A DNA stretch of 61,264 nucleotides, counting the filler, from Candidatus Woesearchaeota archaeon (GTDB lineage: Archaea > Nanobdellota > Nanobdellia > Woesearchaeales > J072): NCBI GenBank assembly GCA_003695265.1. It is 13 parts of 13 records of this genome, joined end to end, with 100 filler letters (N's around TTAATTAATTAA, not from the genome) between each part and the next. Parts side by side here need not be neighbours in the genome. Positions count along the whole stretch, not along the records: positions 3,358 to 15,418 come from RFII01000028.1; 12 more parts are not named here. One strand, 5' to 3'. The translations under genes were made by a program, and so were the position numbers. The notes beneath the pieces were generated by a model, which saw only the letters and a list, made by a program, of their open reading frames with translations, searched no databases and was not told where the DNA came from. Positions within the stretch are counted from its first letter, which is position 1; the number at the start of each line of letters is the position of its first letter. Shown here in pieces: positions 3,358 to 57,283 of this stretch.

Positions 3358-3540
3358 AAACGCTTTTTACCAGATTTTGGCAAAAATCTGTTTCGAACCC
3401 GGATCGACGGCTTGGAAGGCCGTAATCATCTATGGCAACCGGTTGCGAACGTTAGTGAGCGCAGGCGGGTAAGCGAAGCGCATCCCGCCTCTTGCGTGTC
3501 GACCGAGCGTAACCAGTCGTAGCCATTAGACCACCGGCGC
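3358..3540 (-). tRNA. tRNA-Gly(TCC) with D-loop intron (3430-3520, 91 nt) and T-loop 59/60 intron (3391 to contig end); 3' end missing
   Basis: Minus strand reads GCGCCGGTGGTCTAATGGCT|intron|ATGATTACGGCCTTCCAAGCCGTCGATCCGGGTTCGAA|ACAGATTTTTGCC... The D-loop BHB has central helix ATGG:CCAT and bulges CTA/AGA. Confidence 0.9.
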
Positions 3541-3616
3541 AAATTTTTGGGAAAAATTTGATAAAAACCACTCATGTGGCATGTTCACTTCGTGAAATGC
3601 CACGAACCTTTACAGT
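3541..3616. mobile_element. Free-standing (non-intronic) copy of the T-loop intron element
   Basis: + strand AAATTTTTGGGAAAAATTTGATAAAAACCACTCATGTGGCATGTTCACTTCGTGAAATGCCACGAACCTTTACAGT aligns along its length with the tRNA-Gly(GCC) T-loop intron (51779-51853), with compensatory stem changes. Confidence 0.7.
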
Positions 3617-3643
3617 GGGGCTAAACTCTGCTTATGCCCCACA
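3615..3643 (-). promoter_or_regulatory. Conserved hairpin in the tRNA-Gly(TCC) 5' leader
   Basis: Minus strand GTGGGGCATAAGCAGAGTTTAGCCCCAC; homolog at 51522-51549. A TATA-like TTTATAAA lies near 3674-3681. Confidence 0.6.
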
Positions 3644-3795
3644 CAGCTTAAAAAAAGTGAGAAAATCATGTGTTTTATAAAGTTTTTGAATAAATTTGGT
3701 ATTAAGGAAAGGATATTTTTCTTTAAACAATTAAATAAAGGGAATAAGGTAAGCTGAAAGCAATTTTTAAGACTTAATAAATTTTTTATCCCAAA

Positions 3796-3894
3796 GTGCT
3801 GCCAACTTAAGTGAGAAAGCTTTCGTGCGTTGGGTGGTGTGGGTGGGACTAAAAAAATTTCATAATCTCTTAACTCAACAAAATTGGTTTAACC
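3796..3894 (+). mobile_element. MITE-like repeat, copy 1 of 5
   Basis: Core GGTGGTGTGGGTGGGACTAAAAA. Flanks TTATCCCAAA (3786-3795) and TTATCCCCAA (3895-3904). Confidence 0.8.
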
Positions 3895-16972: not shown

Positions 16973-17091
16973 GGCAAAGTCAACTTATGTGAGATAAGTT
17001 TTAGTGAAAGGGTGGTGTGGGCGGGACTAAAAAAATTTACGTATTTACATAAAAATTTTTTACAATTCAACACAACAAAGTTGACTTAACC
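16973..17091 (+). mobile_element. MITE-like repeat, copy 2 of 5
   Basis: Core GGGTGGTGTGGGCGGGACTAAAAA; subterminal inverted repeat AAGTCAACTT/AAGTTGACTT. Flanks ATTGCGTAG (16964-16972) and ATTGCATAG (17092-17100). Confidence 0.8.
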
Positions 17092-17627: not shown

Positions 17628-17840
17628 CGCCGCAGCCCGGACTTTCACAAACTTTTGCCAAAGTTTGACCAAATGCAGTTAAGTGAGACATTCACTTCGT
17701 GAAGTCTCACGAACTTCTTGGCAAAAACCTGTTTTGAACCGGGACATCCCAGAGGGAAACCAGCTGTTCGTATTACGCAGATGAAGAGCTTTCACCTGAA
17801 AACTCCAAGCTGGCGCAATACCAGGTTATGCGACTGCGGC
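17628..17840 (-). tRNA. tRNA-Ser(GGA) with canonical intron (17766-17802, 37 nt) and T-loop intron (17642-17732, 91 nt)
   Basis: Acceptor GCCGCAG:CTGCGGC, discriminator G, long variable arm TTTCCCTCTGGGATGT. T-loop BHB TTCA:TGAA with bulges AAA/AGT. Confidence 0.92.
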
Positions 17841-40271: not shown

Positions 40272-40329
40272 AGCTCACCCCTCAAAAATTAGCGTGTCAG
40301 AAATACTTTATAAATTTTTGGGTTAATCA

Positions 40330-40426
40330 GTGCTGTCAGCTTAAGTGAGAAAGCTTTCATGCTTGGGTGGCGTGGGTGGGACTAAAAATCTTTATAATTT
40401 TTTAACTCAACAAACCTGACTTAACC
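40330..40426 (+). mobile_element. MITE-like repeat, copy 3 of 5
   Basis: Core GGGTGGCGTGGGTGGGACTAAAAA. Exact 9-bp flanking direct repeat GGTTAATCA (40321-40329, 40428-40436). Confidence 0.85.
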
Positions 40427-40609: not shown

Positions 40610-41797
40610 AAGCTCATAATCGCCATTCTCATACATTGTTGTGTTCATTTCCCATTCAAAATCTGAGTAGGCAGTATGCACAAGCGTGCCATTAAGGAAA
40701 AACTCCACTTTTTCAACGCCTGTATTGTCTGACACGTTTGCAACAAATCTTACTGTCCCGTTATAAACACCCGGATCAATTATGCTTATCTGTGGGGGAA
40801 CAGAATCTTCTATTGGTAGAGTTTCAAATTTTACGTCTTGGCTGGCAACAGTGTTCATGCTATGATCTGTTGATTCTGCGACGAAATGATAAGTCGTTGA
40901 TGGTTGCAGGCTGTTAATTGTTATTATGTGGCGTGTGATGAAAGTGGAGTCTTTTTTTTCAAAGCTGTACACTCCAGCCTTTTTGTCATATTTAACCGTG
41001 CTGTCGCTGTTTTCATCAGTTTCCCAGAAAATTGTGGCTGAGTCTTGAGTGAGAGATATTATTTGGGGCCCTGAAACAATTTTTGGGGCATCTGTGTCGC
41101 ACACCCAGCTTTCCTGGCGCTCATTATTTGTTTCATTGCTTTCATTCACGTAATTGCCAAAATCTGCGTACACACTTATGTTGTCGTCAAAACCAGTACA
41201 TCTCCATGCATAGTTAAAGCACAGGTCTGCCCTGTCGCCGGGCATGAGTGCAACGCTTATTGTGCTGTTGGACTCTTGAACGCCATCAATTGTTAAAGGG
41301 GTGTAATGACCTATAGGGGCTGTTTCGCCCCCAATATTTCTCACTTGGTAACATATAGAATTGTTTTCATTCCAAAAGTCAGTAACTATGAGGTCTGGCT
41401 CGCACGCGTCTCCTTTGCCGTCGCCGTCTGAATCCTCCTGGCCCGGATTGAATTTATAAGCGCAATTATCACAAGCATCACCAAAACCGTCACTGTCTGT
41501 GTCGTTCTGGTCTGAATTTGGCACGCTTAAGCAATTGTCACACAAATCACCTATATTATCTGAGTCTGTGTCGTTCTGGTAAGGGTTGTACTGCGTAGGG
41601 CAATTATCAGAAGAATCAGGAATTCCATCACCGTCTGTGTCATTGCCACTTATTAAGTTTTGATTATTAAAAGATTTTTTATTATTAAAGGATTTAATAT
41701 TAAAAGAAGCAATATCAGAAGAAGCAGCAAAAACAAGTGAAAGGCACAAGATTCCCAGTAAAGAGAATAATATCAGCCAAGATGATGTTTTCTTCAT
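40610..41797 (-). CDS. Secreted/surface protein: thrombospondin type 3 repeats, CARDB-like, FN3-like and Ig-like domains (3' truncated)
   Basis: Signal peptide; repeated D.D.DG.GD.CDNC...N..Q; PDL.V...[26 protein letters not shown]. Confidence 0.85.
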
Positions 41798-51472: not shown

Positions 51473-51560
51473 GGGCCTGTAGTCTAGTAGCAAATGGTTG
51501 CTCATTTGATACGCAGGCCATGTGGGGTGTAAGCAAAGCTTAACCCCACGGTAAAAATTT
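51473..51560 (+). ncRNA. Structured leader of tRNA-Val beginning with a 16-nt duplicate of the tRNA 5' end
   Basis: GGGCCTGTAGTCTAGT at 51473-51488 and 51561-51576. Hairpins GGCCTG/CAGGCC and GTGGGG/CCCCAC. TATA-like TTTAAA at 51441-51446. Confidence 0.6.
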
Positions 51561-51647
51561 GGGCCTGTAGTCTAGTGGTTATGACGTCGCCCTTACAATT
51601 ATTAATTAGAAAGGCGGAGGTCCCCGGTTCGAGTCCGGGCGGGCCCA
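51561..51647 (+). tRNA. tRNA-Val(TAC) with canonical intron (51598-51611, 14 nt)
   Basis: Complete cloverleaf after removing ATTATTAATTAGAA. Confidence 0.92.
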
Positions 51648-51703
51648 TCAAAAATTATAAATAGTAGGTAAAAAGTTTTTAATTAAAATTTTAATTAAAT
51701 TTT

Positions 51704-51873
51704 GCGGCAGTAGTCCAGTGGTTAAGATACGGCCTTGCCATGCTTGGGCGTAAAGAGGCTGTGACCCGGGTTCAAAACAGATTTTTGCCAAAATCTGGTA
51801 AAAAGCGTTTAAGTGAGACGTTCACTGCGTGAAGTCTCACGAACCTCAACGGTAAAATCTGTTGAAAGTCCCG
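51704..51873 (+). tRNA. tRNA-Gly(GCC) with canonical intron (51741-51755, 15 nt) and T-loop intron (51777-51868, 92 nt); 3' acceptor strand cut by contig end
   Basis: GCGGCAGTAGTCCAGTGGTTAAGATACGGCCTTGCCA|...|AGGCTGTGACCCGGGTTCAAA|...TGAAAG|TCCCG; BHB helix TTGC:GTAA. Confidence 0.9.
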
Positions 51874-52081: not shown

Positions 52082-52200
52082 GGGCTCGTGGTCTAACGGT
52101 ATGACGCTCCATTGGCTGTGGGGAGACTCCGGGTTCAATAACAGCGTTCAGAGTTCTGAACGCAGAACGCTAAACGCTGTTGAAAGTCCCGGCGAGTCCA
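52082..52200 (+). tRNA. tRNA-Ala(GGC) with T-loop intron (52140-52186, 47 nt)
   Basis: G3:U70 pair; strict BHB GGG-TTCA-ATA-ACAGCGTT / AACGCTGT-TGAA-AGT-CCC. Confidence 0.92.
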
Positions 52201-52269: not shown

Positions 52270-52456
52270 GGGCTTGTGGTCTAATGGTATGACGCCGCCT
52301 TCGCATCCTAGAGAAAAAGGCGGAGACTCCGGGTTCAATAACAGCGTTCGGAGCGCGGTGTTCAGAACGCAGCAAGCGCACTCAGCACTGCTGGGTTCTA
52401 TCGCTGAGCACTGATAACTGATTAGCTGAACGCTGTTGAAAGTCCCGGCAAGTCCA
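52270..52456 (+). tRNA. tRNA-Ala(CGC) with canonical intron (52306-52317, 12 nt) and T-loop intron (52340-52442, 103 nt)
   Basis: G3:U70 pair; same strict T-loop BHB as Ala(GGC). Confidence 0.92.
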
Positions 52457-57058: not shown

Positions 57059-57283
57059 TGCCCCCGTCGGGACTTTCACCAGATTCTGCCGTTTGAAGTT
57101 TGTGAGACTTCACGCAGTTAACATCTCACTAAAACGCTTTTTACCAGATTTTGGCAAAAAATCTGTTTTGAACCCGAGTCATTGCCTTTCTCCAAACACT
57201 TGCGAGAGGGCAATATGATTGTTGCCGAGCTTTTACCTTTTTAATGGTTTTGGTAAAAGTTTGCCGGACTACACCACGGGGGC
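57059..57283 (-). tRNA. tRNA-Glu(CTC) with three introns: D-loop (57222-57262, 41 nt), canonical (57188-57202, 15 nt), T-loop (57073-57166, 94 nt)
   Basis: Spliced product GCCCCCGTGGTGTAGTCCGGC-CAATCATATTGCCCTCTCG-AGGCAATGACTCGGGTTCAAA-TCCCGACGGGGGCA folds as a standard cloverleaf. Confidence 0.92.

What the first reader, a model, noticed from the sequence alone, without database searches (positions are those of the whole stretch)
3541..3616. Free-standing copy of the intron element in a tRNA leader, with an apparent empty site at tRNA-Val
Seen: directly 5' of tRNA-Gly(TCC) lies a near-full-length diverged homolog of the T-loop element, without the TGAAAG tail and with a swapped stem (GTGGCAT/ATGCCAC instead of GTGAGAC/GTCTCAC). 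In tRNA sense the Gly leader reads CCCCACTGTAAA-[element]-AAAAATTT-tRNA. The Val leader reads CCCCACGGTAAAAATTT-tRNA, which is the same context without the insert. Inference: the element exists independently of splicing and favours regions that are removed from pre-tRNA (leaders and introns).
Basis: partly seen in the sequence, partly recalled or inferred. Interest (0 to 1): 0.8.

Follow-up and report, generated by a model that had tools for sequence, protein, structure and literature searches.

The report
Hairpin mini-element seeding archaeal tRNA introns
The copy in front of this tiny archaeon's glycine tRNA is real and belongs to a roughly 66-base mobile DNA element that ends up either as a spliced-out intron or, with a duplicated piece of the gene it hit, as a leader or trailer, which may show how archaeal tRNA genes gain introns; the valine tRNA is not an empty site.

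Summary
The homology is confirmed (0 of 2000 shuffles reach the score against each of three full intronic copies). The leader copy (3540-3606) is antisense to the tRNA and is the second half of an inverted pair of hairpin modules inserted between promoter and tRNA. The Val 'empty site' is wrong: that leader holds its own variant plus a duplicate of the tRNA's first 16 bases.

The genome has 23 modules, all at tRNA genes or inside RNase P RNA. The family was found in 33 of 150 other genomes of the order, also in 16S introns and at protein-gene ends. Copies outside introns show a direct duplication of the upstream flank (28 of 52; 0 of 32 introns). Intronic copies show an inverted closing arm instead (16 of 32; 0 of 52).

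Best reading: a non-autonomous element whose insertion survives either by rebuilding the gene end or by becoming a spliceable intron. No mobilising enzyme was found. It fails defining tests for IS200/IS605, PATE, REP, MITE and integrase scars. I did not find it in print (six searches). The scan reported similar elements on other archaeal DNA before.

The parts
3540..3606 (+). Element A, leader copy (antisense to the tRNA): hairpin 1 3540-3560, purine-rich linker 3561-3571, 4-base tag 3572-3575, bulged hairpin 2 3576-3603, 3' tag; its first base is the complement of tRNA G+1
3615..3642 (-). Variant (B-type) hairpin 2, same 7 bp + 1-base bulge + 5 bp build, tail-to-tail with element A; its hairpin 1 is missing
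   Evidence: (E 0.012)
3639..3647 (-). Place where the ancestral tRNA +1 is expected (34 bases from the TATA box); possibly an eroded stub of the old 5' end (weak in sequence, inferred)
3673..3687 (-). BRE/TATA-like box, now 141 bases upstream of tRNA +1 instead of 30-35
3358..3540 (-). tRNA-Gly(TCC), cut by the contig end (3' end on contig C26), with a D-loop intron (about 3519-3429, two-hairpin module of a sister family) and a T-loop intron (element A from 3390)
51473..51488 (+). Exact duplicate of the first 16 bases of tRNA-Val(TAC), 34 bases behind a TATA box: the stranded original 5' end
51491..51552 (+). B-type element in the Val leader (hairpin 1 51491-51508, hairpin 2 51522-51549): the supposed empty site is occupied
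51561..51648 (+). tRNA-Val(TAC) with anticodon-loop intron (called tRNA-Asn by ARAGORN without intron search)
17648..17713 (+). Element A, inverted, in the T-loop intron of tRNA-Ser(GGA) (tRNA on minus strand; isotype read by eye)
51778..51843 (+). Element A in the T-loop intron of tRNA-Gly(GCC), followed by a closing arm
57099..57165 (-). Element A in the T-loop intron of tRNA-Glu(CTC)

Best explanation
The segment is a copy of a non-autonomous, about 66-base, two-hairpin mobile element of Woesearchaeota-like (DPANN) archaea. Shown: the anatomy, the dispersed copies in both orientations, and two mutually exclusive kinds of junction. Inferred: the element is joined by its hairpin-1 end to a nick in a stem-loop of the target (tRNA D-loop on the sense strand, T-loop on the antisense strand, also gene starts and ends), most likely as folded single-stranded DNA, and its other end is resolved by DNA synthesis with a template switch. 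If synthesis restarts upstream on the target, 13-45 or more bases are duplicated directly and the gene end is rebuilt, leaving the element in a leader (removed by RNase P) or trailer. If an inverted copy of the left junction is made or soon selected, it closes the insert into a stem next to a bulge-helix-bulge-like site and the element becomes an intron for the splicing endonuclease. Once intronic, copies also spread between tRNAs, probably by gene conversion. At Gly(TCC), a B-type module inserted first or together with a reverse A partner as an inverted doublet, and the stranded old 5' end has since eroded. The enzyme is unknown.
For: Direct duplication above the 99th percentile of a cross-genome null in 28 of 52 non-intron copies and 0 of 32 intronic copies; inverted closing arm at or above the 95th percentile in 16 of 32 intronic and 0 of 52 non-intron copies. 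The same Gly(TCC) D-loop junction is seen in relatives empty, as a duplicated-end leader (L224, L219, L241) and as an intron holding the element (L245). The TATA box lies 30-35 bases from +1 in 21 of 22 relatives' loci with a detected box, 34 bases from the dead Val copy, but 141 bases from Gly +1 here. Doublets flanked by a duplicated tRNA end occur in G047 (L164, L165) and in this genome's His leader. Duplicated protein-gene starts flank copies in L138, L148, L163, where no intron ancestor is possible. Hairpin 2 is 98.7% paired with 7 of 12 pairs changing on both sides. Hairpin 1 and the linker co-vary three ways at three positions (19 of 19, 19 of 21, 21 of 23 informative rows), as an antiparallel purine-motif triple helix would, which points to DNA.
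Against: No candidate enzyme: this genome (94.6% complete) has no Y1 transposase, TnpB, reverse transcriptase, GIY-YIG, DUF559 or Cas1 match, and none of 125 ORFs near 64 homolog loci is a transposase or RT. The copy in the finding itself shows neither a direct duplication nor a closing arm (scores 4.5 and 7.0); its history is inferred from the His and G047 parallels. 24 of 52 non-intron copies show no significant duplication and 16 of 32 introns no significant arm. At least 2 of the 28 direct hits are element-to-element similarity, not junction repeats. Context labels were set by eye, relatives are not independent, and a closing stem is required of any surviving intron, so the arm could be selected later. 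No close relative with the pre-insertion allele exists (the family has one genome), and no allele without the insert was seen in the one run that holds the DNA.
Confidence: 0.55

Rival explanations
1. No dedicated mobility: the modules are intron cores spread by gene conversion through T-arm homology, and leader or trailer copies are relics left when a recombination or replication slip duplicated the gene end and stranded an old intron.
For: T-loop copies in Gly(GCC), Gly(CCC), Gly(TCC) are 97-98% identical and Cys/Leu 96%. Related loci carry different variants at the same tRNA (L060 vs L063/L064: downstream flanks 278 of 300 identical, introns 61-62%). The RNase P copy ends at a junction resembling the intron 3' junction and is 81% like the inverted Ser copy. 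No transposase found.
Against: Copies with duplicated flanks at protein-gene starts and ends and three different 16S rRNA sites share no T-arm homology. Leader and trailer copies lack the closing arm a former intron should have (0 of 52). Trailer copies are mostly antisense, whereas 11 of 12 T-loop copies here are sense.
Confidence: 0.2
2. A PATE/REP-like derivative of IS200/IS605 ends, moved in trans by a Y1 (HUH) transposase.
For: Bulged hairpin with a conserved 4-base tag at its 5' foot and 2 conserved bases at its 3' foot matches the described anatomy of IS200/IS605 ends and REPs (PMC6006769). Inverted doublets and tandem units resemble REPINs (PMC3116915). A 16-18-base palindrome like the inner stem sits at the stop codon of one IS200 clade (L116, L118, L120; E 0.055-0.07).
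Against: PATEs and IS605-type elements cause no target duplication (PMC3119063). Flanks show no fixed target tetranucleotide. Y1 genes are in 14 of 33 element-bearing and 42 of 117 element-free genomes, and absent from the three of four highest-copy genomes checked (G000, G047, G114). No significant element match at 32 Y1 loci.
Confidence: 0.12
3. RNA-mediated spread: excised or circular intron RNA is reverse-spliced or reverse-transcribed at a nick (SINE-like target-primed insertion), giving variable duplications.
For: Variable-length direct duplications with one sharp and one ragged junction fit target-primed insertion; copies are transcribed within tRNA precursors.
Against: No reverse transcriptase in this genome or near homologs; both orientations occur relative to transcription; the three-way covariation fits a purine-motif triplex, for which RNA strands are reported to be excluded (title of Semerad and Maher 1994 in the reference list of PMC7583470; not read).
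Confidence: 0.08
4. One reading: the element is steered to, or kept in, removable pre-tRNA regions as a regulatory or processing structure, with Val as its empty site.
For: All 23 modules in this genome lie at tRNA or RNase P genes although about 89 kb is outside ORFs and another repeat has 54 intergenic copies. The Gly leader folds better than shuffles (z -2.5).
Against: Val is occupied; 23 of 26 relatives' Gly(TCC) leaders have no insert; the copy is antisense here and sense elsewhere; copies occur at protein genes in relatives.
Confidence: 0.05

Closest known systems
Transposed tRNA introns of Thermoproteales (Fujishima et al. 2010, known here only through PMC4090602 and 10.64898/2026.10.13.758758)
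   Same: Near-identical introns in different tRNA types at non-canonical positions such as 59/60; mechanism unknown.
   Different: Here the intron core is a defined element that also exists outside introns, in both orientations, in 16S rRNA, RNase P RNA and at protein-gene ends, with target duplications.
REP / REPIN / BIME elements with TnpA-REP (PMC3116915, PMC6006769)
   Same: Short tagged hairpins, bulged stem, inverted doublets, tandem units with flanking DNA.
   Different: Tag is TYAW, not GT[AG]G; two unlike hairpins; no flanked transposase gene found; the paper reports only subclass 1.1 (IS200-type) in Archaea; inserts inside stable-RNA genes.
PATEs of Haloquadratum (PMC3119063)
   Same: Archaeal, transposase-free, no terminal inverted repeats, two sub-terminal palindromes.
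   Different: PATEs cause no target duplication and resemble IS605 ends; this element has long variable duplications and no significant match to Y1 loci tested.
Insertion with long target duplication (Nobusato et al. 2000; PMC2853133)
   Same: Long, variable direct duplication without other mobile-element genes.
   Different: Described for kilobase restriction-modification gene inserts in bacteria; here a 66-base non-coding unit.
Integrase att scars at archaeal tRNAs (PMC3293823)
   Same: A duplicated tRNA 5' fragment upstream of a restored tRNA; proposed link to intron gain.
   Different: There a 1.8-kb insert with a recombinase; here 60-110 bases, many different tRNAs and non-tRNA targets.
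Intrastrand triplex repeats (PMC4666352, abstract seen)
   Same: Hairpin plus mirror-symmetric third strand, dispersed, linked to genomic variability.
   Different: Bacterial G/C-rich motif without a second bulged hairpin or intron link.
Rickettsia palindromic elements (recalled; one search returned no passage)
   Same: Palindromic repeat tolerated inside genes, recalled to include RNA genes.
   Different: Not tested for homology; no splicing route.

Membership tests
IS200/IS605 derivative (PATE) | No target duplication | tested here: not met
   28 of 52 non-intron copies have a direct duplication; definition from PMC3119063
IS200/IS605 derivative (PATE) | Fixed tetranucleotide target 5' of the left end | tested here: not met
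   Flanks before hairpin 1 vary freely, read by eye
IS200/IS605 derivative (PATE) | Hairpins homologous to ends of a TnpA-bearing IS | tested here: inconclusive
   Best E 0.055 at 32 Y1 loci, loci reach only 1.5 kb each side
IS200/IS605 derivative (PATE) | Sub-terminal imperfect hairpins with a conserved 4-base foot | tested here: met
   TCAA 24, TTAA 14, TCAT 11, TTTA 1 of 50 distinct hairpins; partly imposed by the search pattern
REP/REPIN | GT[AG]G guide tetranucleotide at the 5' foot | tested here: not met
   definition from PMC6006769
REP/REPIN | Cognate TnpA-REP gene flanked by the repeats | tested here: not met
   limited to the genomes and loci searched
REP/REPIN | Inverted doublets and tandem units | tested here: met
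   Gly and His leaders, L027/L040/L042 introns, L164/L165, L205
MITE | Terminal inverted repeats and short fixed duplication | tested here: not met
   0 of 52 free copies have an inverted arm; duplications 13-45+ bases, variable
tRNA-targeting integrative element (att scar) | Integrase gene and one specific att core | tested here: not met
   Inserts are 60-110 bases without ORF; targets include many tRNAs and protein genes; the single tyrosine recombinase of the genome has no element within its locus
Archaeal BHB tRNA intron (intronic copies only) | Splice motif at the junctions and a splicing endonuclease in the genome | tested here: met
   T-loop junctions form a 4-bp helix with bulges, read by eye; EndA present, best PDB match 3iey_A
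Archaeal BHB tRNA intron (intronic copies only) | Actually excised from the RNA | not testable with these tools
   No RNA holder listed
Non-LTR/SINE-like retroelement | Reverse transcriptase partner | tested here: not met
   genome 94.6% complete
Known Rfam family | Score above gathering threshold | tested here: not met

The most novel reading that the evidence does not exclude
A previously undescribed class of single-stranded-DNA mini-elements (triplex hairpin plus bulged hairpin), moved by an unidentified enzyme, whose insertion reaction itself writes either a direct duplication that rebuilds the gene end or an inverted duplication that creates the splice stem, so that it is a direct source of new archaeal tRNA and rRNA introns.
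Probability: 0.35. Interest if true: 0.9.

Novelty: new variant of a known kind. Interest (0 to 1): 0.7.

Why it matters
[quoted passage not shown] Here a defined element is caught in all states at the same tRNA site (empty, leader with duplicated 5' end, intron), which gives concrete substrates for binding, cleavage and splicing tests. It also explains why standard tRNA finders miss most tRNAs of this genome (ARAGORN found one gene in the window and misnamed it) and shows a selfish element tolerated inside RNase P RNA.

Tried and rejected
Val as empty site: rejected. Y1 transposase as partner: no match in this genome, no association over 150 genomes, no significant match at 32 Y1 loci. TnpB, RT, GIY-YIG, DUF559, Cas1: none in this genome. 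Viral contigs: 0 matches with three patterns. Strand preference from G-T versus A-C mismatches in hairpin 2 (4 vs 10): too few to decide. First triplex test mixed two registers and was redone. A splice motif around the RNase P copy: the bulges have the wrong handedness by eye, so I read it as a P3 extension. Expression: no RNA holder listed, no evidence either way. Reads: one run holds the stretch and may be its source; no joint skipping the element. Scan look-up by sequence found nothing, so identity with the earlier notes' elements is by description only. ARAGORN with relaxed score and introns gave mostly false calls; tRNA isotypes were read by eye. Three rows were dropped before the count (L166, L182, C84:3587; flanks too short or masked). 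The order-wide tally (132 of 401) includes unpublished genome G315; no claim here rests on it, and the 150-genome cross-count excludes it. Supplements of the bioRxiv preprint could not be seen; they could list intron families bearing on novelty.

Full report
Setting. The window is a concatenation of contigs of a 1.06-Mb, 94.6% complete genome. Named records that match the element are titled Woesearchaeota, Nanoarchaeia or Nanoarchaeota for the most part, and the splicing endonuclease is closest to PDB chain 3iey_A, so I infer a Woesearchaeota-like DPANN archaeon. Its family holds only this genome, so there is no close relative.

Observation. 3541-3616 aligns to the three full intronic copies in the window with scores 77, 86 and 76; 0 of 2000 shuffles reach them, and a profile made only of 11 intronic copies finds it at E 3.8e-11. 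The element is about 66 bases: hairpin 1 (8-9 bp), a purine-rich linker, a 4-base tag, and hairpin 2 (7 bp, one bulged purine, 5 bp), then GA. The leader copy spans 3540-3606, is antisense to tRNA-Gly(TCC), abuts G+1 and is most like the Thr(TGT) T-loop copy (84%). Rfam has no family for it.

The Val leader is not empty. It holds a duplicate of the tRNA's first 16 bases, then a variant element whose hairpin 2 has the same bulged build with a different inner stem, then the intact tRNA. The same variant hairpin lies at 3615-3642 in the Gly leader, tail-to-tail with the copy in the finding, and in the His and Gln leaders. The TATA box is 34 bases before the dead Val copy, the spacing seen in 21 of 22 relatives' Gly loci with a detected box (30-35), but 141 bases before Gly +1. 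About 107 bases have therefore been inserted in front of this tRNA.

Census of this genome. The covariance model gives 21 hits at E below 0.05, two of them the same locus on overlapping contigs; with the His variant and two diverged T-loop copies there are 23 modules: 12 in T-loop introns (one inverted), 1 in a D-loop intron, 9 in leaders (Gly 2, His 3, Thr 2, Val 1, Gln 1) and 1 extending a stem just before the conserved GAGGAAAGUCC of RNase P RNA. The reversed-genome control peaks at E 0.22. None lies away from a stable-RNA gene, although about 89 kb is outside ORFs and an unrelated repeat has 54 intergenic copies.

Relatives. An exact pattern found 5 of 400 other genomes of the order, 13 genome loci, 68 metagenome loci and no viral contig. 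The model found 33 of 150 other genomes of the order and 20 of 150 in a phylum sample, all of the same order. Contexts are tRNA T-loop, D-loop and anticodon introns, 16S rRNA introns at three sites, tRNA leaders and trailers, and protein-gene starts and ends. Hairpin 2 is 98.7% paired with 7 of 12 pairs changing on both sides; the two stem positions that my pattern left free pair in 18 of 22 and 21 of 22 distinct stems. In the long form of hairpin 1, the linker follows the stem as a mirror image: A-T with A and G-C with G at three positions (19 of 19, 19 of 21, 21 of 23 informative rows among 23 distinct forms; offset controls show no such rule). I took the triple-helix reading from an earlier scan note (e1-7008500) and tested it here; related sequences are not independent, so the P values overstate.

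Two kinds of junction. For 85 copies with usable flanks (3 dropped), I compared the 45 bases upstream with the 78 downstream against a cross-genome null. Direct duplication: 28 of 52 non-intron copies, 0 of 32 intronic. Inverted copy of the left junction: 16 of 32 intronic, 0 of 52 non-intron. The RNase P copy reached neither threshold. At least two direct hits are element self-similarity, labels were manual, and the copy in the finding shows neither feature. Duplications cover the tRNA 5' end when the element is sense at the D-loop, the 3' end when it is antisense at the T-loop, and the start codon region in L138, L148 and L163. Among 26 relatives' Gly(TCC) loci, 23 have no leader insert, 3 have a duplicated 5' end with a two-hairpin insert (read by eye; the model did not score them), and one of the 23 carries the element at the same D-loop junction as an intron. 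Inverted doublets bracketed by a duplicated tRNA end (L164, L165; His here) place the reverse partner's hairpin 1 against the rebuilt gene end, exactly as at Gly.

Mechanism. Shown: mobility across unrelated sites, the two junction types, their dependence on context. Inferred: joining of the folded element at a nick in a target stem-loop, repair synthesis with a template switch, and survival only if the gene end is rebuilt or a splice stem forms. The closing arm may instead be selected after insertion into an existing small intron; short T-loop introns without the element are common here. Later spread among T-loops by gene conversion is likely (97-98% identical copies, different variants at the same tRNA in related loci). 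No enzyme was found, and Y1 transposases are no commoner in element-bearing genomes (14 of 33) than in others (42 of 117).

Comparison with what is known. It works like a REP/PATE-type non-autonomous element but fails their defining tests (membership table). Papers seen: 10.64898/2026.10.13.758758 (abstract, section 2.5, Discussion); PMC3293823 (abstract, Discussion part 1); PMC4666352 (abstract); passages of PMC12558985, PMC3116915, PMC3119063, PMC6006769, PMC4090602, PMC2853133, PMC7583470. Fujishima 2010 and Nobusato 2000 were not read; Rickettsia palindromic elements are recalled. Searches returned no description of such an element in DPANN tRNA genes; the library lacks most subscription journals.

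Earlier scan notes describe similar hairpin elements with long duplications or shared intron modules in other archaea; they are unchecked and are not counted as support. What this locus adds is the mutually exclusive junction types, the three states at one tRNA site, the doublet reading of the leader and the RNase P copy.

Verdict. Real, well beyond chance, mis-framed in one respect (Val). New variant of a known kind, interest 0.7; about one chance in three that it is a new class that directly writes introns.

Noticed in passing
window 3795-3894, 16973-17091, 40329-40426: A second, unrelated dispersed repeat of about 100 bases with paired ends and a G-rich core; 54 copies genome-wide at E below 0.01, intergenic, no Rfam hit.
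   Followed up: partly
G000 C44:19343-19439 (L203): Element inserted into the RNase P RNA gene as a long stem before the conserved P4 strand; probably retained in the mature RNA.
   Followed up: partly
window 52122-52170, 52322-52370 and G000 C22, C27, C86: At least two further families of T-loop intron modules shared between tRNAs, and a third nested into the loop of hairpin 1 in relatives.
   Followed up: no
window 3429-3519: The Gly(TCC) D-loop intron is itself a two-hairpin module whose first hairpin recurs in the Gln leader and other D-loop introns, suggesting module shuffling.
   Followed up: partly
L113, L115-L120, L122, L128-L131: A clade of IS200-like Y1 transposases (about 184 aa) with a long conserved left end and a right end that seems to stop inside the gene; three carry a palindrome at the stop codon like the inner stem of hairpin 2.
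   Followed up: partly
L024 (about 1250-1600): An intron-less tRNA-Ser followed by a duplicated 3' end that carries the element as a T-loop intron.
   Followed up: no
L205:1350-1565: Tandem array of three or more near-identical element copies behind a tRNA-Pro.
   Followed up: no
window 41426-41644: Three 69-base tandem units inside an ORF, probably a protein repeat.
   Followed up: no
window contig ends (3358, 15519, 51873, 57377): Several contigs break at the repeated tRNA introns, so copy counts in draft genomes are lower bounds.
   Followed up: partly
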